IMG/VR virus record: IMGVR_UViG_3300042503_001396
Location: 3,738-67,737 of that record
Length of the DNA stretch: 64,000 bases
Direction: 5' to 3' (one strand)
From: a virus
Made by a program: the position numbers and the translations under genes. This document shows, in pieces, positions 15,511 to 63,043 of this stretch (position 1 is its first letter; each line of letters starts with the position of its first letter). The notes below the pieces were generated by a model, which was not told the origin of the DNA, ran no database searches, and saw only the letters and a list, made by a program, of their open reading frames with translations.

Positions 15511-15583
15511 TAGGCGTGGTCGGATTCGAACCGACCCTGGAGGAGTTTTAAGCTCCCTGTCTCTGCCGCTGGACTACACGCCC
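15511..15583 (-). tRNA. tRNA-Leu(TAA), short variable loop
   Basis: acceptor GGGCGTG/CACGCCT, anticodon loop CTTAAAA, T loop TTCGAAT. Confidence 0.9.
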
Positions 15584-15625: not shown

Positions 15626-15698
15626 TGCTCGTTACTGGGATCGAACCAGTCTATCAGGTCTTATGAGGACCGCGCTTTCGCCAGAGAGCTAAACGAGC
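15626..15698 (-). tRNA. tRNA with CAT anticodon (Ile2 or elongator Met)
   Basis: acceptor GCTCGTT/AACGAGC, anticodon loop CTCATAA, T loop TTCGATC. Confidence 0.85.
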
Positions 15699-18100: not shown

Positions 18101-21100
18101 TAATTTTTACTGCAAAGTATGATATCTATGTATTGGACTGCAAAGTCCATTGCTGTTCCAGTGAATCCGTGATCGTGAGATCCACCACCTCCTGAAGCAT
18201 TAGTAGTAAAGGTGTGACTGTGAGCACCCGCACCACCTGTTGTCAAAGAGTAAAAGGGTTCTGAGATTGTACCATTACCAGGGCCAAGAGTTTCTCCCCC
18301 TCCACCATAACTATGAGCGTGATCTCCTACTCCATCAGTAGTTCCACTGTGAGTATGACTCGGTATCTGAGCAGTAGTCAAAGTGGTAGATCCAACAGTT
18401 CCTGAAGGAGTTCTGGAGGCAAATACTGTTGTAAATGCAGTAGAACCACCAGATCCACCACCAGTTCCACTTACAACTCTAAGTGCTTTATTGTTATGAG
18501 TAGTTACTTGTGTCCATCCTGTAGGTGCTGATGCTTGATAGAATAATAAAGTTGTTCCAGTAACAAAAGTTTCTGGTGAAGTTCCTGGTGGACCAGGAGG
18601 ACCAGCTGGTCCTGTGGGTCCAGTAGGTCCAGTAGGTCCAGTAGGTCCAGTAGGTCCAGGAGGACCAGTAACACTAGGACCAGGAGGTCCTGTGGGTCCA
18701 GTAGGTCCAGTAGGTCCAGTGGGTCCAGTAGGTCCTACTTGCTGAACAAATGTTACATTTGCAGTTCCACTTGGTCCTGCAGTTGCTGTAACTCCTGGAC
18801 CAATAAAATTGATCGTTTTAGTTCCTAAAGTTGAACCTACTATTGTACCTTCTTCTTGTACCGTAACACCATCAATAGCAAAAGATGAAATATTTGATGA
18901 TGTTACAACTTCAGACCAAGCAGTAGTTCCATTTCCATTTGTGGATCTATAATAAAGATTTTGTGAGTAAAATGGCGCTGCTAATTGTAGGGCATAATAA
19001 TTTGCTTCATTAGAATGTGTGGAAGTAATTAAATGATACCAAGTATTAGTCGTTGTTGGCCAACCCTCTGCGGTTGTTGCATCATCTGTTTGCCAGAATC
19101 CCGAATTAAGTCGAGTAGTTATATCATCTCTATCAGAAGAACTTTGAGCAGTATTTAAGTAGGTTGCAGTAGTTGCAGAAGTTGCATTACCAGTAATAGT
19201 ACCAACAAATGTATTTGCGTAGACATTATTCCACTTATTAGAAGTACCACCTAAATTTAATGTTCCATCAGTAGAAGGTAGTACACTAGAATTAATTCTA
19301 GAAGTAAAAGTAACTGTATCTGTACTAGCATTACCTAAAAATACATTACCATTAACAGTAAGATTGTTTCCAACAGTAAGATTATTTGAGGTACTTACGT
19401 CAGTTGCTTCAAGATAAATGTCATCATCAGCATCATTTTGAATACCTATATGCAATCTTGTGTTTTCTCCAGATTCCACATAATACCGAATAAATGCCAC
19501 ATCACCCGAACCACCTCCAGGATCGGGTTGCCAATAAATTCCTTTATCTGTACCAGAACCAAAAGAAGGTCTAAAGAATCCATTAACAGTAGCAATACCA
19601 GTAACTAATAAGTTACCAGTTTGAAGATCTGTGGTAGTAATATTATTTAAACCATCAAAAGTCTTTGCATAAACTGTATCCCAACGATTAGAAGAACCGC
19701 CAAGATTTAAAGTTCCATTTGCACCTGGTATTATTGCGGTAGAATTTACGGTTCCAATTTTAGTGTTAGCAATGTAAAAATCATGAGTAACATTTGAATG
19801 ATATTGAATGTCACCAACATTGCCAACACCAAATCCATATTTTTCATTATTATCGTTATAAAGATAAATTTTTAGTTTATCTCTTGTTGTTCCATTAGAA
19901 AAAGTATTTCCAAGATTAATATTATATGGTGTTGCTGTTTGACCAGAAGAATCGGTTCCTAGATTTATATTTCCGCCAATACTCAGTAAATTAGTACTTG
20001 GATTATAAGAAATTCCAGCATCAGTATATAAACTTTCATATGCAGCAGGACTATTATCAGAATCTACAAATGTTGGATAAAATGTATTATCCGTAGAGGT
20101 TCTGATTGTTTTTATGTTGTCGGCATTTGTAGCGGTTCCAGAAAATGCTCCATTAAAAGTATTTGCCCAAACATTATCCCACCTATTATCAGAACTACCT
20201 AAGTTTCTGGTTCCAGTAGGAATAACATTTGTATTGATTGATCCATTAACGGATATGGTATCAGTGCTAGCATCACCTAAAGTTACATTACTCTTAAATG
20301 TTACATTAGAATCAAATGTAGCAATTCCAGTGACACTTAATTGATCATCGATTATTGTAAGTCCACCAGCAGAGTCAATTGTTAAATTTCCTGTTGTGGT
20401 ATCAATTTCATTGTCGCCCGTAATACCGATTTGAATATTATCAATATAAGCACCACCATTAGCATCAATATAACTTGTAAAGGTGCTAATACCAGAAACA
20501 AATAACTGAGATATGCTAGTAACACCTAATGTAGCAATACCAGTAACAAGTAAATCTCTTGTAGATACAATTCCAGTAAAAAACCCATTTCTAGCAAAAA
20601 TTTCATCTTGATAGATATCTTGACTTAAATATAAATTTCCACCAACATATAAATCCCCACCTGTTGTTGTAATACCACCTGCGGAGGCAAGAGTTGTAAC
20701 TCCGACAATAGATACTGAACCTCCAACATTGAGATTTTTTTCAATTCCTACACCACCTTCAGTGATAATTGACCCAGTATTCTTACTTGTAGATTCGGTT
20801 GCATCATTAATATAAACTGCATCATTAATCTGAGTAGTTCCTCCAGAGGAATCTAAAATGAGATTACCAGTATTCGTACTAACGGTATTTGTATCAATTT
20901 TAATATTATCAAATGTTCCGACACCAGTAACATTTAAATTGTTAATGATAACTTGAGTATCAAATGTAGAAATTCCAGATACTTTGAGTCGATTTAATGT
21001 TGTAGATTGATAAACTTCAAGATTTTGAGTTGTAGTAAGTCCAGTTACACCTAAATCACTATTAATATTAACTTTTTGTAAGAATGTTGAAATACCAGTT

Positions 21101-31489: not shown

Positions 31490-33088
31490 TCACATCACCA
31501 CATTATAATTTAACTGAGAATATAAGACATAAAAATTATCAGGATTTGCAGAATTGATTAAAGGAACATCTGTCAGTGCCCCATTAGTTAAAGGAGGATT
31601 GGGTTGTTGTTGAGCACTTGATGTCTTAATCATTGTCAAAGATGGTTTTGGTTCTGGTAACTGACCAACTTGCTGAGGTTCTTTAGGTGGCATTGTCACT
31701 TGTGCAGAAGTTATTTTTGCCTCCTCAGTTTTTGATGGTTGATTCATACTAGCAGAATCTTTCAATTTCATTTCATTCCAATCATAACCCTTTGTCTGTG
31801 CCCAAGTTTTTGCTTGTTGTTGTTGATCTGGTGTCATTTTGTTCCAAGATTCTTCAATTCTCCCTCGTGCCATTGGATTATTGCGATATTGCCATGCCTG
31901 CTCAAATTTCTTTTCCATATCTTGAGATGGAGCAGGAGTTGATGGTTGTTCACCCATCATGGGAGTTTGTGGTTGAGCAGGAGGAGGAGGTGCTGGTGGT
32001 GTTGGTGAAGGTGTTGGTTTTGTGGAAGCAACAGGTGATTTTTTTAATTGTTCTTTTCTTTTTGCATCTTCAAATTCTTTTTTCTTCTCCTGTAATAATT
32101 TTGGATCTGCTCCAGTAAGATTTGAACCAAATAATTCTGCAATTTGATCTAATGTATAAGTTGCACCCGCAACTGCCCTAATTCCTCTAAATATTCCACC
32201 ACCAGGAACAAAAGTTAAAGCTGATAATATAGCATCAACTTTTTCCCCGTTCATCCAGTTCATCCATCCAGTTAGACCATTAATTAAACCACCAATTAAT
32301 CCTGGACCTCCCCCTCTAGGTTTTGGTCCTCCGCTTGGTGGAGCACCACCAGGTTTTGGTCCTTTAGGTAACAACGCTGCAGCAAGTGCAAGAGGTTTTG
32401 CGATTAATAATTTTGTCAATCCTGAAGCAATACCTGCAATCGTTCTTGTAATTAATGAAAATCCTACTTTAACAGCAATTAATCCACCAACTGCTATTCC
32501 AACATTTTTAAGAATGTTAAATCTAATTTCATTAAAAAGTTTTGTATTTCCTTCTTCAGATGCCTTTATTGCATCTACTGTTTGTTTAGTTAACCAACCA
32601 CCAAATAAAATTCCAAGGGCTGCTCCTATTCTACCAAAAATATCATTTACTTGTGGAACTAATTTTTGTACAGGTTCAGCAACTGCATTTTGAATTTTTT
32701 GTTCTATTTCATTCTCTTTTCCAATTCTAATTTGTCTTTCTGCTAATAATCTTTCCTTTTCTTGATCTACTCTAACTTTATTCCGATCTTCTGTTGCATC
32801 TTGTTGGAGAAGAAGAGCAATACCAGAAAGACCAGTTCCTAATTTTACAATATCGGTTCTTATCGCTTGGAGAGTCGAATTGAATCCTAAGAGGGCTTGC
32901 TCCTGTCCTCTGGATAATTCTGCATTTTGTGCATCAGATTGTGCTCTTCTGTTCTCAATATTTTGAAAAACTGATGCATCAATAGTAGATTTTTTTAAAA
33001 GAGCAGTTCGAACTTCTTGAGACAAAGGAGATCCCGTAACTGGATCAACACCAGATCTACCAACTTTTTCGGGATCTAACTCAGCCAT
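31490..33088 (-). CDS. putative tape-measure/hub-like protein
   Basis: coiled-coil, hydrophobic segments and Pro-rich tail, downstream of gp26/gp51. Confidence 0.5.
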   Translation of the reverse strand: MAELDPEKVGRSGVDPVTGSPLSQEVRTALLKKSTIDASVFQNIENRRAQSDAQNAELSRGQEQALLGFNSTLQAIRTDIVKLGTGLSGIALLLQQDATEDRNKVRVDQEKERLLAERQIRIGKENEIEQKIQNAVAEPVQKLVPQVNDIFGRIGAALGILFGGWLTKQTVDAIKASEEGNTKLFNEIRFNILKNVGIAVGGLIAVKVGFSLITRTIAGIASGLTKLLIAKPLALAAALLPKGPKPGGAPPSGGPKPRGGGPGLIGGLINGLTGWMNWMNGEKVDAILSALTFVPGGGIFRGIRAVAGATYTLDQIAELFGSNLTGADPKLLQEKKKEFEDAKRKEQLKKSPVASTKPTPSPTPPAPPPPAQPQTPMMGEQPSTPAPSQDMEKKFEQAWQYRNNPMARGRIEESWNKMTPDQQQQAKTWAQTKGYDWNEMKLKDSASMNQPSKTEEAKITSAQVTMPPKEPQQVGQLPEPKPSLTMIKTSSAQQQPNPPLTNGALTDVPLINSANPDNFYVLYSQLNYNVVM

Positions 33089-33122
33089 TTGATTGGTCTT
33101 CTATTATTCTTATTTATTACTA

Positions 33123-33228
33123 TATAAATAAAATTGCCTGAAGTTGACTGCAATCTCTACGGGTCGGAGAGGAGAAATCCTCTCCTTTGTAATATAAATA
33201 CAAATGCAGTCAACTAAAGAGTAAATTT
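33123..33228 (+). ncRNA. dual late-promoter small-RNA/leader cassette A
   Basis: TATAAATA 33123, TGCCTGA, 11-nt box, GAAA hairpin plus T run, TATAAATA 33193, complementary 11-nt box, AAGAG, ATG. Confidence 0.6.
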
Positions 33229-33312
33229 ATGGTAAATCCTAACAGATTTTATACCTATGTCCCGGAGAAGGTTGGGATCTTGGGTTTAAAAAATCTAAAA
33301 AATCAACGTTGA
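33229..33312 (+). pseudogene. internally deleted homing endonuclease remnant
   Basis: MVNPNRFYTY (compare the YTYAYLRED genes at 42516 and 59736) joined out of frame to CPGEGWDLG. Confidence 0.65.
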
Positions 33313-33325
33313 TTTTTTAGATTTT
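33290..33325. repeat. perfect 36-bp palindrome
   Basis: AAAATCTAAAAAATCAAC/GTTGATTTTTTAGATTTT. Confidence 0.9.
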
Positions 33326-33479
33326 CCTCTTCAATATATTGTTTTAGAAGAGCAATATAAATTTCTCTTTCCCATGGAATCATTTCATTAATTTCAGTAA
33401 GAGACCAACCGTGATGCTGAATCAAAGAAAAGTTTGTCTTATAAAATGATTCAAGATTCTCATGTGAAAGAACTAGGCG
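33303..33479 (-). CDS. gp51-like baseplate chaperone ORF with no start codon (probable -1 frameshift extension of gp26)
   Basis: RLVLSHENLESFYKTNFSLIQHHGWSLTEINEMIPWEREIYIALLKQYIEEEN in the -1 frame after T TTT TTC. Confidence 0.75.
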   Translation of the reverse strand, partial: RLVLSHENLESFYKTNFSLIQHHGWSLTEINEMIPWEREIYIALLKQYIEEENLKNQR

Positions 33480-34192
33480 AAAAAACTTGATAGTCCTTCC
33501 AGCAATACTTCACTTTCTACACCGGTATTAGGATTTTTAATTTTTAGAGTATGAGAAAGTTTAGGCATTGTTGAAAAGAAACTTTCAAGATGCTTAAATT
33601 GTTTTGAACTCAATTGTTCAATAAACTCAGACAATTCTTTTTGAGTACAATCTGATGCAGACCAAGACTCTTCTTCATTATATACTTGTTCCATGCAAGA
33701 AATAATAAGATTGAATGTGTCATCAACACTCATAGTAAACTCATTTCCAAAGTTAGATTTAATAAACTCATTCATTGATGGATATTTCATTCTCAAAGAT
33801 AAATTATCATCAAGTTTAATATCCCTTGAATGATTTTCATCAACACTAATTTGAATATCGTCAAGATTAACACTTATTGGAACCTGTGTTGTTCCATCAT
33901 CTGGACAGGTAATTAAAACGTCAACCGTTTCTCCAACAGATTTTCCACGAATGTTAAGAAACAAATATTCAATATCAAAAGTTGCAAGTTGTTCAACTTT
34001 AATTCCTTTAGTTAAAATGCAATTATTAATTACAGTTTTAACAGCGTTTGCAATTTGCTTAGGATCTTCACTCTCCATTGCAATGATCAGAATTTTTTCT
34101 TCTTTTACAAGAAAAGGGCGATATTTAATTTCTTTTTTAAGAGATGGAATTTCTAAAGAATACGAAGGAGTTGCAATTTTTGGAAGAACCAT
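33473..34192 (-). CDS. gp26: baseplate hub assembly protein (gp26-like)
   Basis: LPKI.TP...YRPFLVKEEKIL...IRGKSVGE...LEGLSSFF. Confidence 0.85.
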   Translation of the reverse strand: MVLPKIATPSYSLEIPSLKKEIKYRPFLVKEEKILIIAMESEDPKQIANAVKTVINNCILTKGIKVEQLATFDIEYLFLNIRGKSVGETVDVLITCPDDGTTQVPISVNLDDIQISVDENHSRDIKLDDNLSLRMKYPSMNEFIKSNFGNEFTMSVDDTFNLIISCMEQVYNEEESWSASDCTQKELSEFIEQLSSKQFKHLESFFSTMPKLSHTLKIKNPNTGVESEVLLEGLSSFFA

Positions 34193-34220
34193 TTTTTTAA
34201 TTCAAATCATTTAAACATAT

Positions 34221-34988
34221 TTAGTCTTCAATTTTAATTCGCAATATAGTATCAATATTTCTTTTTCTTTGATAATTCGAAAGTCCAGGAGCATTTGAAA
34301 TATAACCAGTAACCAAACACTTCCATTTTTGCTTTCCTATATTTTGCCTCTGTTCCTTTGAAAATGCATGAATACCTGTTTTATTTTCATATGCTTTATT
34401 TCCACTAATCTTTCCACCTTTACTTCTTGCTTTATATTTTTCTTCCTTACCTATTCCAAACATTCCTGCATTATTTTCATACAATAATTTTCCATATTTT
34501 TTTCCAAGATTTTGTATATGACCACTTTCAACATTTTTTTGTGCTAATTTTTTACCATTTTTCTGCCTAATTTCTGTAGATACCCCATATATACCAAGTC
34601 CTAATCTTTTTTGAGTTTCTCTACCTTTATTACCATCTTGTACAATTTGTTCTTTTGTTCTTGAATGTATTCCTAACTTATTTTCAACTAATATTTTTGC
34701 TCCCTTTTTACACATTTCTATTGAAATTATTCCTCCACAATTTTCATTCAAACAATTTGGATCATTAATTACCTGTTTAATTAATCTGTTTTCTACATTA
34801 TTTGCATGTTCTCTAGAATCAAATAATTCCAATATTTGTTTTTTTGGTGTATAAAATTCCCAACACCATTTATGAGTTACTGCAGAACCCATATAATACT
34901 CTTCATACTTTTTTTCAGTATGACTACCATAGTAATAATAAGGGACTTCTTCAAAAGTAATTTTATATGTGTATATACGAGGTTGCAT
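34221..34988 (-). CDS. free-standing GIY-YIG (Seg-like) homing endonuclease
   Basis: IYTYKIT...YYYGSH...YMGS...E..LI...CLNEN; basic repeated C-terminal modules. Confidence 0.8.
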   Translation of the reverse strand: MQPRIYTYKITFEEVPYYYYGSHTEKKYEEYYMGSAVTHKWCWEFYTPKKQILELFDSREHANNVENRLIKQVINDPNCLNENCGGIISIEMCKKGAKILVENKLGIHSRTKEQIVQDGNKGRETQKRLGLGIYGVSTEIRQKNGKKLAQKNVESGHIQNLGKKYGKLLYENNAGMFGIGKEEKYKARSKGGKISGNKAYENKTGIHAFSKEQRQNIGKQKWKCLVTGYISNAPGLSNYQRKRNIDTILRIKIED

Positions 34989-35092
34989 AACTGCTCTTAA
35001 ACTGGTGGTTAATATTATTTATATTAGGAAAGGAGCATTTCTGCTCCCATTCTTCCTGAAAAGAACCACCAGTTCAGGCATTAATATTTATA
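34989..35092 (-). ncRNA. dual late-promoter small-RNA/leader cassette B
   Basis: same architecture as cassette A with a different 11-nt complementary pair. Confidence 0.6.
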
Positions 35093-35120
35093 ATAACCAT
35101 TACAAATATGATAAAATTAT

Positions 35121-35930
35121 TTATCTGTTATTTGTCGATCCATAAAGAGATTCTGTCAAAGTTTTGTCAAAAGGAAATAGTTCTACTCCATTTGATGGAA
35201 TAGATCCAGGAGATCTTGGAACTAATCTTGGTCTCGGTTGAGAAACTGGTTGTGGTTGTGGTTGAGAAGGAAGTTTATTACCATCTTCATTTCTATTAAA
35301 GTTCACACTATAAGATTTTCCAATTACATAACGATCAATTTTGAATGTTACTTGCATCTTTAATACATCAGATTGTCCATAAGAAACTGGCATGGATGCA
35401 ATATTATATGGATATAATCCAATAAAAGTATATTCTATTTCTCTTTGATAGTCACGATCAAATTTAATAATTCTAGTTTTATTTGACTTATAATATTCTG
35501 GATACTGCATCCTTATGAAATAACCTCTATCAACATTACTATTAATTGGTAAATTATTTCCATTGATTGGATTTGATGATCCACTCGCAATGAATTCCAT
35601 CCAATGCTCCAAGAATTTTAATGTATTGTAATTCTTGTCAACATAGAATTCAAGACTTATATCCTGATAGATTCTTTTATGAGCAAAAGTTTCAGTAATA
35701 CCAATATAATTTCCAGAAATATCTACAGTTGCAAGTTGAGTTGTTGGAAGAACTGCATTATGGCACAAAAGTCCAGCATCTTCAGCAATAAATCTTGATG
35801 ATACTCCCCTAGTTCTCAAATAACTTATTAATTCTCCAGGAAGTCCACCAAACTTAACCTCATAATGAGAAGTTTGTGCTAAATTTGTAAATAGTGGTTT
35901 GATATCTGATATTCTACGTGGTTTTGCCAC
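35121..35930 (-). CDS. tail tube initiator (gp54/gp19-like)
   Basis: LC..A.LP...LEFYVD...FLEHW; synteny with gp4/gp48. Confidence 0.7.
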   Translation of the reverse strand: MAKPRRISDIKPLFTNLAQTSHYEVKFGGLPGELISYLRTRGVSSRFIAEDAGLLCHNAVLPTTQLATVDISGNYIGITETFAHKRIYQDISLEFYVDKNYNTLKFLEHWMEFIASGSSNPINGNNLPINSNVDRGYFIRMQYPEYYKSNKTRIIKFDRDYQREIEYTFIGLYPYNIASMPVSYGQSDVLKMQVTFKIDRYVIGKSYSVNFNRNEDGNKLPSQPQPQPVSQPRPRLVPRSPGSIPSNGVELFPFDKTLTESLYGSTNNR

Positions 35931-47438: not shown

Positions 47439-47831
47439 TCAAGTTTCCGTTTTCAATTCCCATTCTTGAGTTTCTTCATTCCAGTTATAATAACTTCCAG
47501 ATTCTTTTTGTTCTTCTGTAAGTTCTGGTTCTGAAACTGGTGGTTGCCATTCATAAGTTTCAGTATTTAAAGTCCAAGAAGGGTATGGTTGTGGTGCTAA
47601 GAATACATCATATTGATTATTATAAACCATTCCAATTCCAGCAAAACGATGTCTAAAGTTGTTGTTATAAGAAGTTTGTTTCCATTTTGTTGTTTGTCCA
47701 TGTATTGATTGAAGAAATTGTATTCCTATTTCTTCACTTTCATTTCCATTTTTATCAAGAATATCAACATTTCTTACAACAGAAACTCTCAAAACATTAT
47801 CTTCATAATCAAGTTGAGCAAAATGTGCCAT
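47439..47831 (-). CDS. putative fibre/adhesin chaperone
   Basis: MAHFAQLD...WKQTSYN...FAGIG..Y...PYPSW; follows the glycine-rich gene. Confidence 0.65.
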   Translation of the reverse strand: MAHFAQLDYEDNVLRVSVVRNVDILDKNGNESEEIGIQFLQSIHGQTTKWKQTSYNNNFRHRFAGIGMVYNNQYDVFLAPQPYPSWTLNTETYEWQPPVSEPELTEEQKESGSYYNWNEETQEWELKTET

Positions 47832-52595: not shown

Positions 52596-54449
52596 CTATT
52601 CTCCTCCTAGTGCTAAAATGAATGGTGTCATTGCCGAGAATAAACTCTTCGAATAAAATGCTCCAGAAATTGTTCCTGTAGTTTGATTAACAACTACACC
52701 ATCACCGATTCTAAAGTTTCCTGATTGATCCGTACTTGTGAAAATAACCAGACCACCATTTCTCATATCAACTTCATTATCTTGAATTGGAACACCACCT
52801 TGAGCAGGAAGAGCACCATTAATGTTTGTACCAGAACCAATGTATTCAAAAGAATGTCCAGATGCTAATACTCTACTTTGCTTAAAGAATGGAACAGTCG
52901 AACCAACACCAACTGCATAAGGAACATTATCACTAACAGTAATTGTACAAATACCAGAAGAAACTGGAGTTGAACTTATGACAGAATAATATGCTGGAAG
53001 TAATTCTAAAGTTGCTGTTGATGTATTTATTCCCACATCAGGACCAGCAATTCTAATTGTTGGTGCTGTCGTATAACCTCTTCCACTTGAGACAATTTCA
53101 ATTCTAGTTACAGAACCATTTGAAACTTCTGCGACTGCTGTTGCCTGAACTCCCCAATCAGTTGAAGGTGCAGAAATTGTAACGACCGGACTTGAATTAT
53201 ATCCAGTTCCACCAGAACTTACTTGAATCTTATTAACGTTATAATATAGACTATCAAAGTACACAACCTGACCATCAAAAGGTCTTGTCACATTAATTTT
53301 TGCAGTACCACCAGAAACATAAGTATGAGGCAACGTTGAAGAACCAACGTTGACCACCAGTTGATTTGCTGTAGGAACTGACTGAACTTCAAAAATATAA
53401 CCATAAGCACCACTTGGATATGTAACAATTCCTGGTCCAGATGGACAAGTAAAACCAAGTCCAGCAATCGTGACTCCCATACCAACAGAAAAGTTATGAT
53501 TCGCAGAAGTAGTGATTGTCGTAACGCCACTTACATTGTCATAAACTGCGTTTGATACATTATAAGTTGGAACATTCAAATCAAGAATAAAAGTATCACT
53601 ATTTGCTTCTGATGTTTGAGTTATAATTCCAGTATACTTTCTTGGTCCAACACCATCAGCAACAAGACCATAATTACCGAAAGAGGCATTTGAGTTCGTA
53701 AGATCACAAGCACCACCAGTTCCACAAAAGACTGCAGTATCTGGGCAAATTGTGAAAAGTGAAACCAACTGAGCATATCCTTCGTTGGTAATTGAAACTC
53801 CAATACCACCTTGATTGTATTGAGTATATGAGTCAAGAACCATTGACTTGGTTGGTCCAATCGAATGCTTACCATCAATCTTCATTCCAATACTATTAGG
53901 AATGAAGTTGGTACAGTTCTGAATATAAGGTGACTGATTATTAAAAACTGGTTTGTTAGGATTGAATGCAAAAATAGCACCAGTGTTTGCAGAACCTACA
54001 AAAGACATTTCAGCAATATAGTTTCCATTCCCAACATAAAAGAGGTCTCCTTGATTTTGTGGAGTGATGGAGACCTCTCTTAAACTATCACCAACAATAC
54101 TAACTTGATTGGGAATATCAATTGGATTATTTTCTACATAAGATCCAGCACTAACTCTAATAACGGAACCTGCTGTTGAGATTGCAACTGCTCCTGCGAT
54201 GGTTGCTTTTGCGTCTCCGAGTTTGAGTCCTGTGTTTGTATCGTTTCCGTCTCTTGTGACATAGATTACATTTGTAACTGTTGCGCCTGCACCGATGCGA
54301 ATAATATCTGTGCCGATTCCAAGACGTTCTCTTTTGGCAGTTAACTCACCATCATAAGTGTTGTATGCTAATTCTGCACTTAATAATTGATCTACTGTAG
54401 GTCTCTTGCCAGGAACAGCAGAGCGTTTAATCCTGATCGGAGTTGACAT
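52596..54449 (-). CDS. virion structural/fibre-base protein with beta-helix
   Basis: N-terminal IRIKRS..PG..P...ELAYN..DG.L fibre motif; paralogue of 22842..25727. Confidence 0.8.
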   Translation of the reverse strand: MSTPIRIKRSAVPGKRPTVDQLLSAELAYNTYDGELTAKRERLGIGTDIIRIGAGATVTNVIYVTRDGNDTNTGLKLGDAKATIAGAVAISTAGSVIRVSAGSYVENNPIDIPNQVSIVGDSLREVSITPQNQGDLFYVGNGNYIAEMSFVGSANTGAIFAFNPNKPVFNNQSPYIQNCTNFIPNSIGMKIDGKHSIGPTKSMVLDSYTQYNQGGIGVSITNEGYAQLVSLFTICPDTAVFCGTGGACDLTNSNASFGNYGLVADGVGPRKYTGIITQTSEANSDTFILDLNVPTYNVSNAVYDNVSGVTTITTSANHNFSVGMGVTIAGLGFTCPSGPGIVTYPSGAYGYIFEVQSVPTANQLVVNVGSSTLPHTYVSGGTAKINVTRPFDGQVVYFDSLYYNVNKIQVSSGGTGYNSSPVVTISAPSTDWGVQATAVAEVSNGSVTRIEIVSSGRGYTTAPTIRIAGPDVGINTSTATLELLPAYYSVISSTPVSSGICTITVSDNVPYAVGVGSTVPFFKQSRVLASGHSFEYIGSGTNINGALPAQGGVPIQDNEVDMRNGGLVIFTSTDQSGNFRIGDGVVVNQTTGTISGAFYSKSLFSAMTPFILALGGE

Positions 54450-61639: not shown

Positions 61640-61800
61640 GAGTTAGATAAAAGTTCGGGGGGACGAACCGTTAGTATTATTCCCCACAGCACCCTCCACT
61701 GTGGGTATGAGAGACATCTTTTACTTGCCTAGTCTCGGTGAGGAGTTTCGTCCCTTTTCGGCAAGAACTTGTGTTAAGAACCTGTTACATTTCTTAACCC
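61640..61800 (-). ncRNA. structured psbA leader (PhotoRC-II-like), copy 1
   Basis: CTTGCC/GGCAAG stem, GAGAC/GTCTC pseudoknot, CCCACAG...CTGTGGG hairpin. Confidence 0.65.
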
Positions 61801-62862: not shown

Positions 62863-62889
62863 TATTTTTATAAATAAATGACGGTTATA

Positions 62890-63043
62890 ATATTCCCACA
62901 ACACCCTCCATTGTGGGTATGAGAGACGTTCTTATACACCCATAGGTCTCGGTTAACGGGTGTTTGACAATGTTAAGAATTATGAGGAATCCTTAACATT
63001 TGTTTACCTATTTATCATAGCACTGCTCGATTTCCCTGTCAAG
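62890..63043 (-). ncRNA. promoter plus PhotoRC-II-like leader, copy 2
   Basis: TTGACA-N17-TATGAT/ATAAATA; ACACCC/GGGTGT stem, GAGAC/GTCTC, CCCACAA...TTGTGGG. Confidence 0.65.

What the first reader, a model, noticed from the sequence alone, without database searches (positions are those of the whole stretch)
33123..35092. Conserved two-promoter small-RNA cassette antisense to the leaders of two unrelated homing endonucleases
Seen in both copies (A, + strand 33123-33231; B, - strand 35092-34986): TATAAATA, 4 nt, TGCCTGA, an 11-nt box, a CT-rich stretch, C(A/G)GG, a GAAA-tetraloop hairpin plus TTT, a second TATAAATA, 4-5 nt, the exact reverse complement of the box, AAGAG, ATG. The boxes differ (AGTTGACTGCA versus AACTGGTGGTT) yet each pairs perfectly with its own partner, which is full covariation on a fixed scaffold. 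The two downstream genes belong to different nuclease subfamilies. Inference: promoter 1 makes a ~55-nt terminated RNA with a constant scaffold and variable guide. It would pair with the 5' end of the nuclease mRNA from promoter 2, like a type I antitoxin, or alternatively act as an RNA cofactor. This differs from the known single-promoter T4 hairpin, and I do not recognise it as a described system.
Basis: partly seen in the sequence, partly recalled or inferred. Interest (0 to 1): 0.85.

Follow-up and report, generated by a model that had tools for sequence, protein, structure and literature searches.

The report
Portable RNA control module of cyanophage nucleases
Two copies of a movable ~110-base control unit that selfish DNA-cutting (homing endonuclease) genes carry in freshwater T4-like cyanophages; it extends a known phage T4 way of hiding the ribosome site until late, and may also make a small antisense RNA that nobody has observed.

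Summary
The two cassettes are real and stand at the stated coordinates. They belong to a large family: 59 distinct full copies were aligned, more divergent ones turned up, and the isolate S-SRM01 has six.

Both copies are insertions relative to S-SRM01. Only copy B precedes an intact nuclease gene (255 aa). Copy A precedes a 27-codon remnant, and a near-identical contig still has that gene whole.

- **Main helix.** The 11-nt boxes are the variable part of a longer helix. Its constant part, GCCUGA, pairs with the Shine-Dalgarno region, and the helix covaries strongly.
- **Known mechanism.** The second TATAAATA lies between the two arms, so its transcripts lack the masking arm. This is the T4 I-TevI / Aeh1 mobE mechanism. 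Dassa et al. 2009 reported such hairpins before endonuclease genes in cyanophage-like metagenome loci.
- **What goes beyond the known.** There is a conserved upstream late-promoter-like box, an internal terminator-like hairpin, and a second, mutually exclusive helix that also covaries. These fit a roughly 55-nt antisense RNA, but no RNA evidence exists.

Verdict: a new variant of a known kind. This scan found the same module before on other DNA.

The parts
33098..33313 (+). Insertion A as a whole, relative to S-SRM01: cassette A, the nuclease remnant and the left palindrome arm, lying between gp51 and the 532-aa gene
   Evidence: The pairwise alignment with S-SRM01 has a clean gap here.
33123..33130 (+). 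P1-A, late-promoter-like TATAAATA
   Evidence: In the family this position reads NATAAATA in 46 of 59 copies (one with a 5-nt spacer) and xCTAAATA in 12 of 59.
33135..33152 (+). 5' arm A: constant anti-Shine-Dalgarno TGCCTGA (33135-33141) plus variable box1 AGTTGACTGCA (33142-33152)
33160..33163 (+). 3' strand of the alternative helix S1 (CGGG), which pairs with CCUG of the arm and leaves box1 in the loop
   Evidence: Pairable in 59 of 59 copies. Forms in the fold of the short form. Covaries in divergent copies.
33166..33188 (+). S2-A: 8-bp GAAA-loop hairpin plus TTT, terminator-like
   Evidence: Listed as terminator-like. About -15 kcal/mol.
33193..33200 (+). P2-A, late promoter TATAAATA between the two arms
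   Evidence: P2 reads TATAAATA in 57 of 59 copies.
33205..33231 (+). 3' arm and leader A: box2 TGCAGTCAACT (33205-33215), AAAGAG Shine-Dalgarno (33216-33221), ATG (33229-33231)
33229..33312 (+). 27-codon ORF, the remnant of a NUMOD3-type homing endonuclease gene (the first 10 codons are shared with the intact gene)
   Evidence: The intact form continues after 33259 in an RNA-library contig.
33290..33325 (.). 18-bp perfect palindrome between the remnant ORF and gp51; a likely two-way terminator, and it marks the deletion scar
   Evidence: (I4).
33111..33118 (-). AATAAATA on the minus strand inside insertion A, 22 nt upstream of the ATG of the 532-aa gene; a possible replacement late promoter brought by the insertion
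   Evidence: Read. It lies inside the insertion. Its function is inferred.
34986..35092 (-). Cassette B: P1 35092-35085, arm TGCCTGA 35080-35074, box1 35074-35064, CAGG 35058-35055, hairpin S2 35047-35032, P2 35023-35016, box2 35010-35000, TAAGAG 34999-34994, ATG 34988-34986
   Evidence: (117.3 bits).
34221..34988 (-). Intact free-standing homing endonuclease gene (255 aa) driven by cassette B
   Evidence: phrog_314 'homing endonuclease', E 5.6e-12. No Pfam hit. Absent from S-SRM01 and from a contig that joins 34180 to 35101.

Best explanation
Both copies are instances of a portable 5' control module that free-standing homing endonuclease genes carry in freshwater T4-like cyanophages.

**Core of the module (shown by sequence and covariation).** A long-range RNA helix joins two arms. 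One arm is a constant anti-Shine-Dalgarno stretch (GCCUGA) followed by a variable 10-12-nt box. The other arm is the reverse-complementary box followed by the Shine-Dalgarno region (UUAAGAGC), and it forms the first about 20 nt of the nuclease mRNA.

**How it would work.**
- The strong late promoter P2 lies between the arms.
- RNA that starts upstream carries both arms, so its ribosome site is masked.
- RNA that starts at P2 begins at box2 and is open.
- Nuclease translation is therefore confined to P2 transcripts late in infection. This is the T4 I-TevI / Aeh1 mobE mechanism; here it is inferred by analogy, not shown.

**Three additions.**
- A GC-rich hairpin with a T-rich tail lies between the arms. 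It probably stops most incoming transcription.
- A late-promoter-like box P1 sits 5 nt before the 5' arm.
- A short helix S1 (CCUG:CAGG) competes with the long helix and puts the box in a loop.

Together these would release a roughly 55-nt RNA made of S1 plus the hairpin, complementary to the whole leader. Whether this RNA exists and acts in trans is open.

**In this genome.** Module B serves an intact nuclease gene inserted between gp48 and gp26. Module A is a leftover whose nuclease has been deleted.
For: **Family.**
- 59 distinct full copies were aligned.
- The covariance model R1 finds both window copies (117.3 and 81.9 bits).
- It finds six copies in S-SRM01, each ending at the ATG of an endonuclease-like ORF.
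- In a gp26-centred sample of 80 loci that was not chosen for the cassette, R1 finds 8 copies.

**Long helix.**
- 10-14 contiguous pairs in 59 of 59 copies, with 25 distinct box pairs.
- 86.6% of cells are paired against 72.5% in shuffles (0 of 500 shuffles as high).
- 160 cells show two-sided change against 62.8 in shuffles.
- 9 of 16 pairs show compensatory change.
- Slid controls give 23-43% paired (all).

**Masking.**
- Minimum-energy folds of the long forms pair GCCUGA with the Shine-Dalgarno region (-39.3 and -37.6 kcal/mol, z -6.0 and -5.7). The P2 forms are unstructured there.
- The mean unpaired probability from Shine-Dalgarno to AUG is 0.40 in the long form against 0.56 in the P2 form. 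It is lower in the long form in 53 of 59 copies.

**P2.**
- TATAAATA in 57 of 59 copies, placed 4-5 nt before box2 in 52 of 59.
- By my count of the sequences printed, TATAAATA in 20 of 21 divergent copies found by the model.

**Mobility.**
- Both copies are insertions relative to S-SRM01.
- A contig from an RNA library joins 34180 to 35101 without the B unit.
- The downstream genes belong to NUMOD3/GIY-YIG, HNH-like and PD-(D/E)XK-like families.

**Literature.** The same logic is described for I-TevI/II/III, segB and Aeh1 mobE, and for cyanophage-like metagenome loci.
Against: - No transcript start, transcript end or translation measurement exists for any copy. The RNA-library contigs say nothing on this.
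- In copy A the contiguous box helix stops short of the Shine-Dalgarno sequence. Predicted masking there is weak: unpaired probability 0.65 against 0.72.
- At the A site the upstream gene is divergent, so only P1 could supply the masking arm. A purely 'early read-through' rationale does not explain that site.
- The hairpin tail meets a strict terminator rule (at least 5 T in 8) in only 37 of 84 copies by my rough script. Copy B's hairpin is not listed as a terminator on its own strand.
- P1 is less canonical than P2 and is missing in one degenerate copy (L127:4-110).
Confidence: 0.75

Rival explanations
1. One reading: P1 makes a discrete, terminated RNA of about 55 nt (5' stem-loop S1 with box1 in its loop, plus the hairpin). 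This RNA pairs in trans with the first about 17 nt of the P2 mRNA, including the Shine-Dalgarno sequence, and damps nuclease translation in the manner of an antisense regulator. It can coexist with the cis mask.
For: - **P1 is kept at a fixed distance from the arm.** TAAATA is invariant in the 59-copy alignment apart from one TATATA variant.
- **S1 is pairable in 59 of 59 copies and is mutually exclusive with the long helix.** It keeps pairing through different sequences in divergent copies, for example CCUUAA:UUAAGG, CCUAA:UUAGG, UGCUUA:UAAGCA and CUCUAA:UUAGAG (read by eye).
- **Partner-swap test.** In 17 of 20 distinct copies whose arm is not CCUG, the cognate 3' strand pairs better than 95% of foreign ones.
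- **A helix that forms only when the long helix is absent argues for a functional short or nascent form.**
- **The short forms fold as S1 plus hairpin** (-20.5 and -20.1 kcal/mol, z -3.0 and -2.3).
- **Predicted binding favours the cognate leader.** -13.8 and -15.0 kcal/mol for own leader against -6.2 and -0.6 for the other copy's leader.
- **Boxes differ within a contig.** No two cassettes on one contig share a box: 0 of 48 pairs against 3.0 expected, permutation P about 0.05.
- **At the divergent A site, P1 is the only plausible source of arm-bearing RNA.**
Against: - No RNA evidence of any kind. No paper was found that reports such an RNA.
- By my count of the sequences printed, P1 is the perfect octamer in only 1 of 21 divergent copies and xCTAAATA in 7 of 21. 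P2 is perfect in 20 of 21.
- S1 could serve co-transcriptional folding, or 5'-end protection of a read-through RNA.
- Box diversity is also expected from neutral compensatory drift of a cis helix, and from selection against long identical repeats.
- The within-contig test is marginal, and the contigs are related to one another.
- Remnants left after nuclease loss do not always keep the P1-S1-hairpin unit. L279 and L280 lack it.
Confidence: 0.3
2. Cis-only insulator. The hairpin simply terminates incoming transcription and the long helix silences what reads through. P1 is then an inactive or irrelevant relic, for example a recombination-prone promoter box at the edge of the mobile unit. S1 only aids folding.
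For: - P1 is degenerate compared with P2 (my count of the sequences).
- One copy lacks P1 altogether.
- Known T4-family masks need no upstream promoter.
- Endonuclease insertions are known to bring their own terminators and promoters.
Against: - TAAATA at a fixed 4-nt spacing is kept in copies that sit in unrelated genomic contexts.
- xCTAAATA also stands where other phages have xATAAATA upstream of gp26 in junctions without an insertion. It may therefore be an accepted late-promoter variant.
- At divergent sites such as A, no incoming transcription is expected, yet the arm, S1 and the hairpin are intact.
Confidence: 0.2
3. RNA cofactor or guide: the short RNA binds the nuclease and directs or licenses DNA cleavage through its variable box.
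For: Only the fixed-scaffold, variable-box layout supports this.
Against: - The same scaffold precedes unrelated nuclease folds.
- The box is always complementary to the gene's own leader.
- The box of copy A has no other match in the window beyond chance: 3 matches, 16 of 100 shuffles as many.
- Homing endonucleases of these families recognise DNA through their protein domains (established knowledge, recalled).
Confidence: 0.03

Closest known systems
Late promoter nested in a ribosome-site-sequestering hairpin: T4 I-TevI, I-TevII, I-TevIII, segB; Aeromonas phage Aeh1 mobE; also T4 genes e and soc (reviews PMC2988022 and PMC3014915; passages read)
   Same: - A helix hides the Shine-Dalgarno sequence on RNA that starts upstream.
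- TATAAATA lies between the arms, so late transcripts lack the 5' arm.
- The regulated genes are homing endonucleases in T4-like phages.
   Different: - Here the helix is long-range, with 55-70 nt between the arms, and encloses a separate terminator-like hairpin.
- A second late-promoter-like box stands just upstream of the 5' arm.
- The 5' arm has a conserved, covarying alternative partner (S1).
- The module is one sequence family shared by several nuclease families.
Hairpins in the 5' UTRs of free-standing endonuclease genes in 'fractured gene' metagenome loci (Dassa et al. 2009, PMC2677866; section 14 read in full and other passages; figures and supplement not seen)
   Same: - Cyanophage-like loci.
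- Hairpins in 15 of 16 UTRs, 10 of them with TATAAATA.
[quoted passage not shown]
- One locus keeps the hairpin after losing the endonuclease gene.
- Interpreted as an Aeh1-type translational control.
   Different: - The text I read does not mention an upstream promoter, an internal terminator, an alternative helix or a small RNA.
- I could not compare sequences, so identity with this family is likely but not shown.
Antisense RNAs made from the same region as their target, with exchangeable specificity boxes, for example c4 RNA of phages P1 and P7, and type I antitoxins such as Sok
   Same: - A short structured RNA whose loop is complementary to the translation start region of a neighbouring, potentially harmful gene.
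- Specificity is set by covarying short boxes.
   Different: - Here no RNA has been observed.
- Both promoters face the same way.
- The target is a site-specific nuclease, not a small membrane toxin.
- This is a functional analogy only.
CfrI antisense RNA of cyanophage S-PM2 (mentioned in PMC2984593; passage read)
   Same: A non-coding RNA linked to a homing endonuclease gene in a T4-like cyanophage.
   Different: CfrI is about 225 nt and is transcribed from the opposite strand across the endonuclease gene and psbA. The architecture is unrelated.

Membership tests
T4-type translational mask with nested late promoter | An RNA helix includes the Shine-Dalgarno sequence of the regulated gene | tested here: met
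   - Folds pair GCCUGA with UUAAGAGC.
- Covariation.
- The effect is weaker in copy A, whose contiguous helix ends 1 nt before AAAGAG.
T4-type translational mask with nested late promoter | The late promoter TATAAATA lies between the arms, so late transcripts lack the 5' arm | tested here: met
   - By sequence only: P2 is TATAAATA in 57 of 59 copies and lies 4-5 nt before box2 in 52 of 59.
- The start-site spacing of T4 late promoters is recalled, not tested.
T4-type translational mask with nested late promoter | The masking arm is supplied by transcripts from upstream early or middle promoters | tested here: inconclusive
   - B follows the co-oriented gene gp48.
- A has a divergent upstream gene.
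- A crude context call gave 48 co-oriented, 8 divergent and 24 unclear of 80.
T4-type translational mask with nested late promoter | Measured repression of translation that is relieved late in infection | not testable with these tools
   Needs reporter or infection experiments.
Trans-acting antisense small RNA (c4-like, or type I antitoxin-like) | Own promoter and a defined 5' end | tested here: inconclusive
   - The motif is conserved: NATAAATA in 46 of 59 (one with a 5-nt spacer), xCTAAATA in 12 of 59.
- No 5'-end data. The RNA runs were kept only as contigs.
Trans-acting antisense small RNA (c4-like, or type I antitoxin-like) | Intrinsic terminator giving a discrete 3' end | tested here: inconclusive
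   - A stable hairpin is present in 59 of 59 copies (-11 to -21.6 kcal/mol).
- The strict T-run rule is met in 37 of 84.
- Copy A is listed as terminator-like; copy B is not listed on its own strand.
Trans-acting antisense small RNA (c4-like, or type I antitoxin-like) | Complementarity to the target's translation start region, shown in an accessible loop | tested here: met
Trans-acting antisense small RNA (c4-like, or type I antitoxin-like) | The RNA is detected and has a box-dependent effect in trans | not testable with these tools
   - No informative public reads.
- No paper found.
Any Rfam family | A match at or above the gathering score | tested here: not met
   - No match at the cassettes at gathering thresholds.
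- With E up to 1, only far-sub-threshold eukaryotic snoRNA and miRNA models matched.

The most novel reading that the evidence does not exclude
The P1-S1-box-hairpin unit is a real late small RNA gene of about 55 nt.

- Each homing endonuclease gene then travels with its own cognate antisense brake, which binds the 5' end of the P2 mRNA through a loop-to-leader contact and then unzips S1 to cover the ribosome site.
- The module would be a three-state riboregulator: short RNA, masked read-through RNA and open P2 RNA.
- It would be the first trans-acting small-RNA family dedicated to homing endonucleases.
- Units left behind after nuclease loss (L012/L016, L067, L038/L043/L103) could even blunt an incoming cognate nuclease during co-infection.
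Probability: 0.3. Interest if true: 0.75.

Novelty: new variant of a known kind. Interest (0 to 1): 0.5.

Why it matters
**What is at stake.** Homing endonucleases must be expressed enough to spread, yet not enough to harm the phage or disturb neighbouring essential genes. This module shows a compact, transferable answer that several unrelated nuclease families share in an abundant group of freshwater cyanophages.

**If the upstream unit makes a small RNA.** It would add a cognate antisense layer to the classic T4 mask. It would also give a natural set of orthogonal RNA pairs: at least 25 box pairs were seen.

**Practical points.**
- The module marks nuclease insertions and their remnants.
- It corrects start-codon annotation. 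Two S-SRM01 endonuclease genes are annotated as starting inside the cassette.

**A testable system exists.** S-SRM01 is an isolate with six copies.

Tried and rejected
**Public RNA runs.**
- Only small shares (0.05-0.08) were held, and all runs were kept as contigs.
- They give no transcript starts, ends or strand, and no cover over either cassette except one contig that begins at 33212.
- This is no evidence for or against a small RNA.

**Rfam.** Nothing relevant.

**BLAST of the cassettes against isolate phages.** Only S-SRM01 gave meaningful hits. Other short hits were AT-rich noise.

**RNAalifold on the raw MAFFT alignment.** It found only S1, because boxes and hairpins were out of register. 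I therefore gave the long helix by hand and parsed the hairpins by script.

**Greedy search for S1 against shuffles.** It did not discriminate: with G-U pairs allowed, 95% of shuffles reached 4 bp. I replaced it with the partner-swap test. The first anchor was partly mis-set and was corrected.

**Do remnants after nuclease loss preferentially keep the 5' unit?**
- Three deletion types that keep it (L012/L016; L067; L038/L043/L103) came from searches that required the 5' unit, so they are biased.
- The gp26-centred sample took the best 80 of 222 loci. The junction could be measured in 67. Of these, 3 have the full unit plus nuclease gene. Two loci (L279, L280) have a remnant that lacks the 5' unit. 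None has a 5'-unit-only remnant.
- No preference is shown.

**P1 quality against upstream context.** 'Other' octamers occur in 0 of 8 divergent and 12 of 48 co-oriented contexts. I ran no formal test, the contexts were called crudely, and 24 were unclear.

**Box B as a guide.** It has 9 matches at up to 1 mismatch in the window against 1.6 expected. The motif contains GGTGGT, which is common in glycine-rich structural genes, so I did not take this as targeting.

**Inverted-repeat or transposon-end reading of A and B.** Rejected. The two copies are separate insertions at two junctions, each present without the other in relatives.

**Papers.**
- PMC1913452 (Gibb and Edgell 2007) is not held. It is cited only through the reviews.
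- The supplements of Dassa et al. 2009 (motif figure S4) could not be seen and may bear on whether their motifs are these.
Full report
**Setting.** The window is part of a 67.7-kb viral record, about 28% complete. It comes from a T4-like cyanophage. The closest isolate is the freshwater Synechococcus phage S-SRM01 (Kyanoviridae), at 87% identity over 67% of a 3.4-kb query.

The local genes all lie on the minus strand:
- a gp48-like tail-tube/baseplate gene (35121-35930);
- a 255-aa homing endonuclease gene (34221-34988; phrog_314, no Pfam family);
- the gp26 baseplate hub (33473-34192; PF12322);
- a gp51 fragment (33303-33425);
- a 532-aa gene (31490-33088).

**The observation.** The 19-nt head motif occurs only at these two places in the window. 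With up to 2 mismatches allowed, 0.33 matches are expected.

One part does not hold. Copy A is followed by only a 27-codon ORF and an 18-bp perfect palindrome, not by a nuclease gene.

**Both copies are insertions.** Aligned with S-SRM01, the window has two clean extra blocks.
- *Block A* is 33098-33313. It lies between gp51 and the 532-aa gene and points against the operon.
- *Block B* is cassette B plus the endonuclease gene, between gp48 and gp26. A contig from a riverine RNA library joins 34180 to 35101 without this block, so the empty allele exists in nature.
- *The A nuclease was deleted here.* A near-identical contig (L087) has cassette A, with one base different, followed by an intact gene of about 206 aa (my reading of the alignment). 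The window shares its first 10 codons and then diverges into about 55 nt that create the palindrome. A relative with the same N-terminus, L064, carries NUMOD3 motifs. A contig in another RNA library also continues with the intact gene after 33259.
- *Frequency.* In 80 loci fetched through gp26, without regard to the cassette, the model finds the B-site unit in 3 and the A-site unit in 5. The spacing in all five fits a full-length gene.

**A large family.** With the two window copies that makes 59. Scan 1 required TATAAATA at P1, and scan 2 required it at P2.

A covariance model built on these (R1) gave the following.
- It found further divergent copies in the same loci (104 matches; with the window and S-SRM01 copies added, 87 distinct sequences).
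- It found six copies in S-SRM01. Each ends at the ATG of an ORF of roughly 180-250 aa, annotated as HNH endonuclease (twice), NUMOD3 protein, homing endonuclease, hypothetical, or 'translation initiation factor 2'.

Representative downstream proteins carry NUMOD3, GIY-YIG, HNH-like (phrog_655) or PD-(D/E)XK-like signatures. The scaffold is therefore shared by unrelated nucleases.

**The long helix.** The 11-nt boxes are only the variable part.
- With G-U pairs allowed, the contiguous helix is 10-14 bp in 59 of 59 copies, with 25 distinct box pairs.
- Minimum-energy folds extend it, across two single-base bulges, through GCCUGA pairing with UUAAGAGC. That stretch is the Shine-Dalgarno region.
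- On the alignment, 86.6% of cells pair against 72.5% in shuffles (0 of 500 as high). 160 cells show two-sided change against 62.8 in shuffles. 9 of 16 pairs show compensatory change. Slid controls reach only 23-43%.
- Even the outermost constant pair switches from G:C to A:U in S-SRM01 copies (UACCUGA with AGAGU, read by eye).
- P2 lies between the arms, 4-5 nt before box2 in 52 of 59 copies. By the usual spacing of T4 late promoters (recalled), P2 RNA starts at about the first base of box2 and lacks the masking arm.
- The predicted unpaired probability from Shine-Dalgarno to AUG is 0.40 for the long form against 0.56 for the P2 form. It is lower in the long form in 53 of 59 copies. The effect is clear for B (0.26 against 0.59) and weak for A (0.65 against 0.72).

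**What is already known.** This is the logic described for T4 I-TevI, I-TevII, I-TevIII, segB and Aeh1 mobE, and for T4 genes e and soc. Dassa et al. 2009 reported hairpins in 15 of 16 endonuclease 5' UTRs of cyanophage-like metagenome loci. Ten of these had TATAAATA, and two conserved motifs complemented each other on the stem. One locus kept the hairpin after losing the gene.

**What goes beyond the known design.**

*1. A stable hairpin between the arms.* It is present in every parsed copy (-11 to -21.6 kcal/mol) and is followed by a T/C-rich run. Copy A's hairpin is listed as terminator-like; copy B's is not listed on its own strand. By a strict rule, 37 of 84 copies pass (a rough script).

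*2. The upstream box P1.* TAAATA is kept 4 nt before the arm.
- Among the 59 copies the octamers are TATAAATA 23, GATAAATA 11, AATAAATA 9 (one with a 5-nt spacer), CATAAATA 3, xCTAAATA 12 and other 1. The count of 23 is inflated by scan 1.
- By my count of the 21 divergent copies printed, which were found by the model: P1 is TATAAATA in 1, another NATAAATA in 12, xCTAAATA in 7 and absent in 1. P2 is TATAAATA in 20.
- P1 is thus conserved but less canonical than P2.
- NATAAATA is the reported cyanophage late-promoter form.
- xCTAAATA alternates with xATAAATA upstream of gp26 at junctions without an insertion. It may be an accepted variant; this is an inference.

*3. The alternative helix S1.* CCUG of the arm pairs with CAGG just after box1 in 59 of 59 copies, with U-A alternating with U-G. 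Box1 is then left in a loop of roughly 13-19 nt (the range allowed by the scan pattern). S1 and the long helix cannot both form.
- In divergent copies the arm, its S1 partner and the Shine-Dalgarno region change together. Examples are CCUUAA:UUAAGG, CCUAA:UUAGG, CCUGUA:UAUAGG, UGCUUA:UAAGCA with UAAAGCA, and CUCUAA:UUAGAG with UUAGAAGC (read by eye).
- In a partner-swap test, the cognate S1 3' strand beats 95% of foreign ones in 17 of 20 distinct non-CCUG copies. The copies are related, so this is not a formal probability.
- A helix that can form only when the long helix is absent argues that a short or nascent form matters.

**How it most likely works.**
- *Shown:* the sequence architecture, the covariation of both helices, the nesting of P2, the insertion status and the link to nucleases.
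- *Inferred by analogy:* RNA that carries both arms is translationally masked. P2 RNA is open, so the nuclease is made only from P2 transcripts late in infection.
- *Inferred from sequence:* the hairpin stops much of the incoming transcription, while P2 re-supplies the downstream genes (here gp26 and gp51).
- *Open:* whether P1 fires and releases a roughly 55-nt RNA made of S1 plus the hairpin. The short forms fold that way. Predicted binding is -13.8 and -15.0 kcal/mol for cognate leaders, against -6.2 and -0.6 for the other copy's leader. I put this at about 0.3.

**Points bearing on cis against trans.**
- *For trans:* S1 covaries. At the divergent A site only P1 can supply arm-bearing RNA. 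No two cassettes on one contig share a box (0 of 48 pairs, 3.0 expected, permutation P about 0.05).
- *Against, or neutral:* the box result is marginal, the contigs are related, and avoidance of recombination between repeats would explain it too. P1 is often non-canonical. Box diversity is expected for any cis helix.
- *Remnants after nuclease loss.* Three deletion types keep P1-S1-box-hairpin, but they were found by searches that required that part. The unbiased gp26 sample yielded only a remnant without it (L279, L280).

**Comparison and novelty.**
- The module works like the T4 / Aeh1 masks. It meets their two sequence-level defining features; the functional ones are untestable here.
- It is probably the element seen by Dassa et al. 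2009.
- My searches found no paper describing the upstream promoter, the internal terminator, S1 or a small RNA. The S-SRM01 genome paper does not use the words late promoter, hairpin or terminator.
- It matches no Rfam family.
- This scan has noted the same module before on other DNA: 88 notes in at least 52 genomes, and the follow-up reports reached the same reading. Those notes are not independent evidence.
- I rate it a new variant of a known kind, of moderate interest. It would be clearly more interesting if the small RNA is real.

Noticed in passing
window 61669-61776 and 62882-62975 (- strand): Two PhotoRC-II RNA motifs (RF01717; 54.8 and 80.7 bits, gathering score 39).
   Followed up: no
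window 15511-15583 and 15626-15698 (- strand): Two adjacent tRNA genes found by Rfam (50.8 and 42.7 bits).
   Followed up: no
window 33290-33325: An 18-bp perfect palindrome with no loop lies between the remnant ORF and gp51. Its right arm is the gp51 3' end as seen in L087, and its left arm is new sequence. The nuclease deletion therefore seems to have involved an inverted duplication.
   Followed up: partly
window 33303-33425 (- strand): Insertion A changes the end of gp51. In S-SRM01, gp51 overlaps the start of the next gene. Here it ends inside the inserted sequence.
   Followed up: partly
window 47535-47545 (+), and 18444-18466, 53352-53362, 53711-53721 (-): The 11-nt box of copy B has 9 matches at up to 1 mismatch in the window against 1.6 expected. 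One is an exact copy inside a minus-strand ORF (47439-47831). This probably reflects GGTGGT-rich coding sequence.
   Followed up: partly
window 34351-34807 (- strand gene): Three or four diverged direct repeats of about 40 nt lie inside the 255-aa endonuclease gene (D1-D3). They suggest repeated DNA-binding modules, although Pfam finds no NUMOD3 in this protein.
   Followed up: no
L121 992-1050, L227 567-622 and L238 15016 (S-SRM01 record): The annotated starts of gp075 and gp297 lie inside the cassette, upstream of the ATG that the module points to. gp114, annotated 'translation initiation factor 2', is preceded by a cassette and is probably an endonuclease gene.
   Followed up: partly
L012 2981-3088, L016 558-665, L067 253-334, L038 3011-3119, L279/L280 (gp48-gp26 junction): At least four different nuclease-loss alleles occur at the B site. 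Two keep P1-S1-box-hairpin plus the last 7-15 codons of the gene. One keeps the cassette through P2, which then faces gp26 directly. One keeps only about 100 nt of the gene's 3' end.
   Followed up: yes
L127 (14.4-kb locus): Six cassettes lie within 14 kb of one contig, all with different boxes. One (4-110) lacks P1 and has an imperfect long helix.
   Followed up: partly
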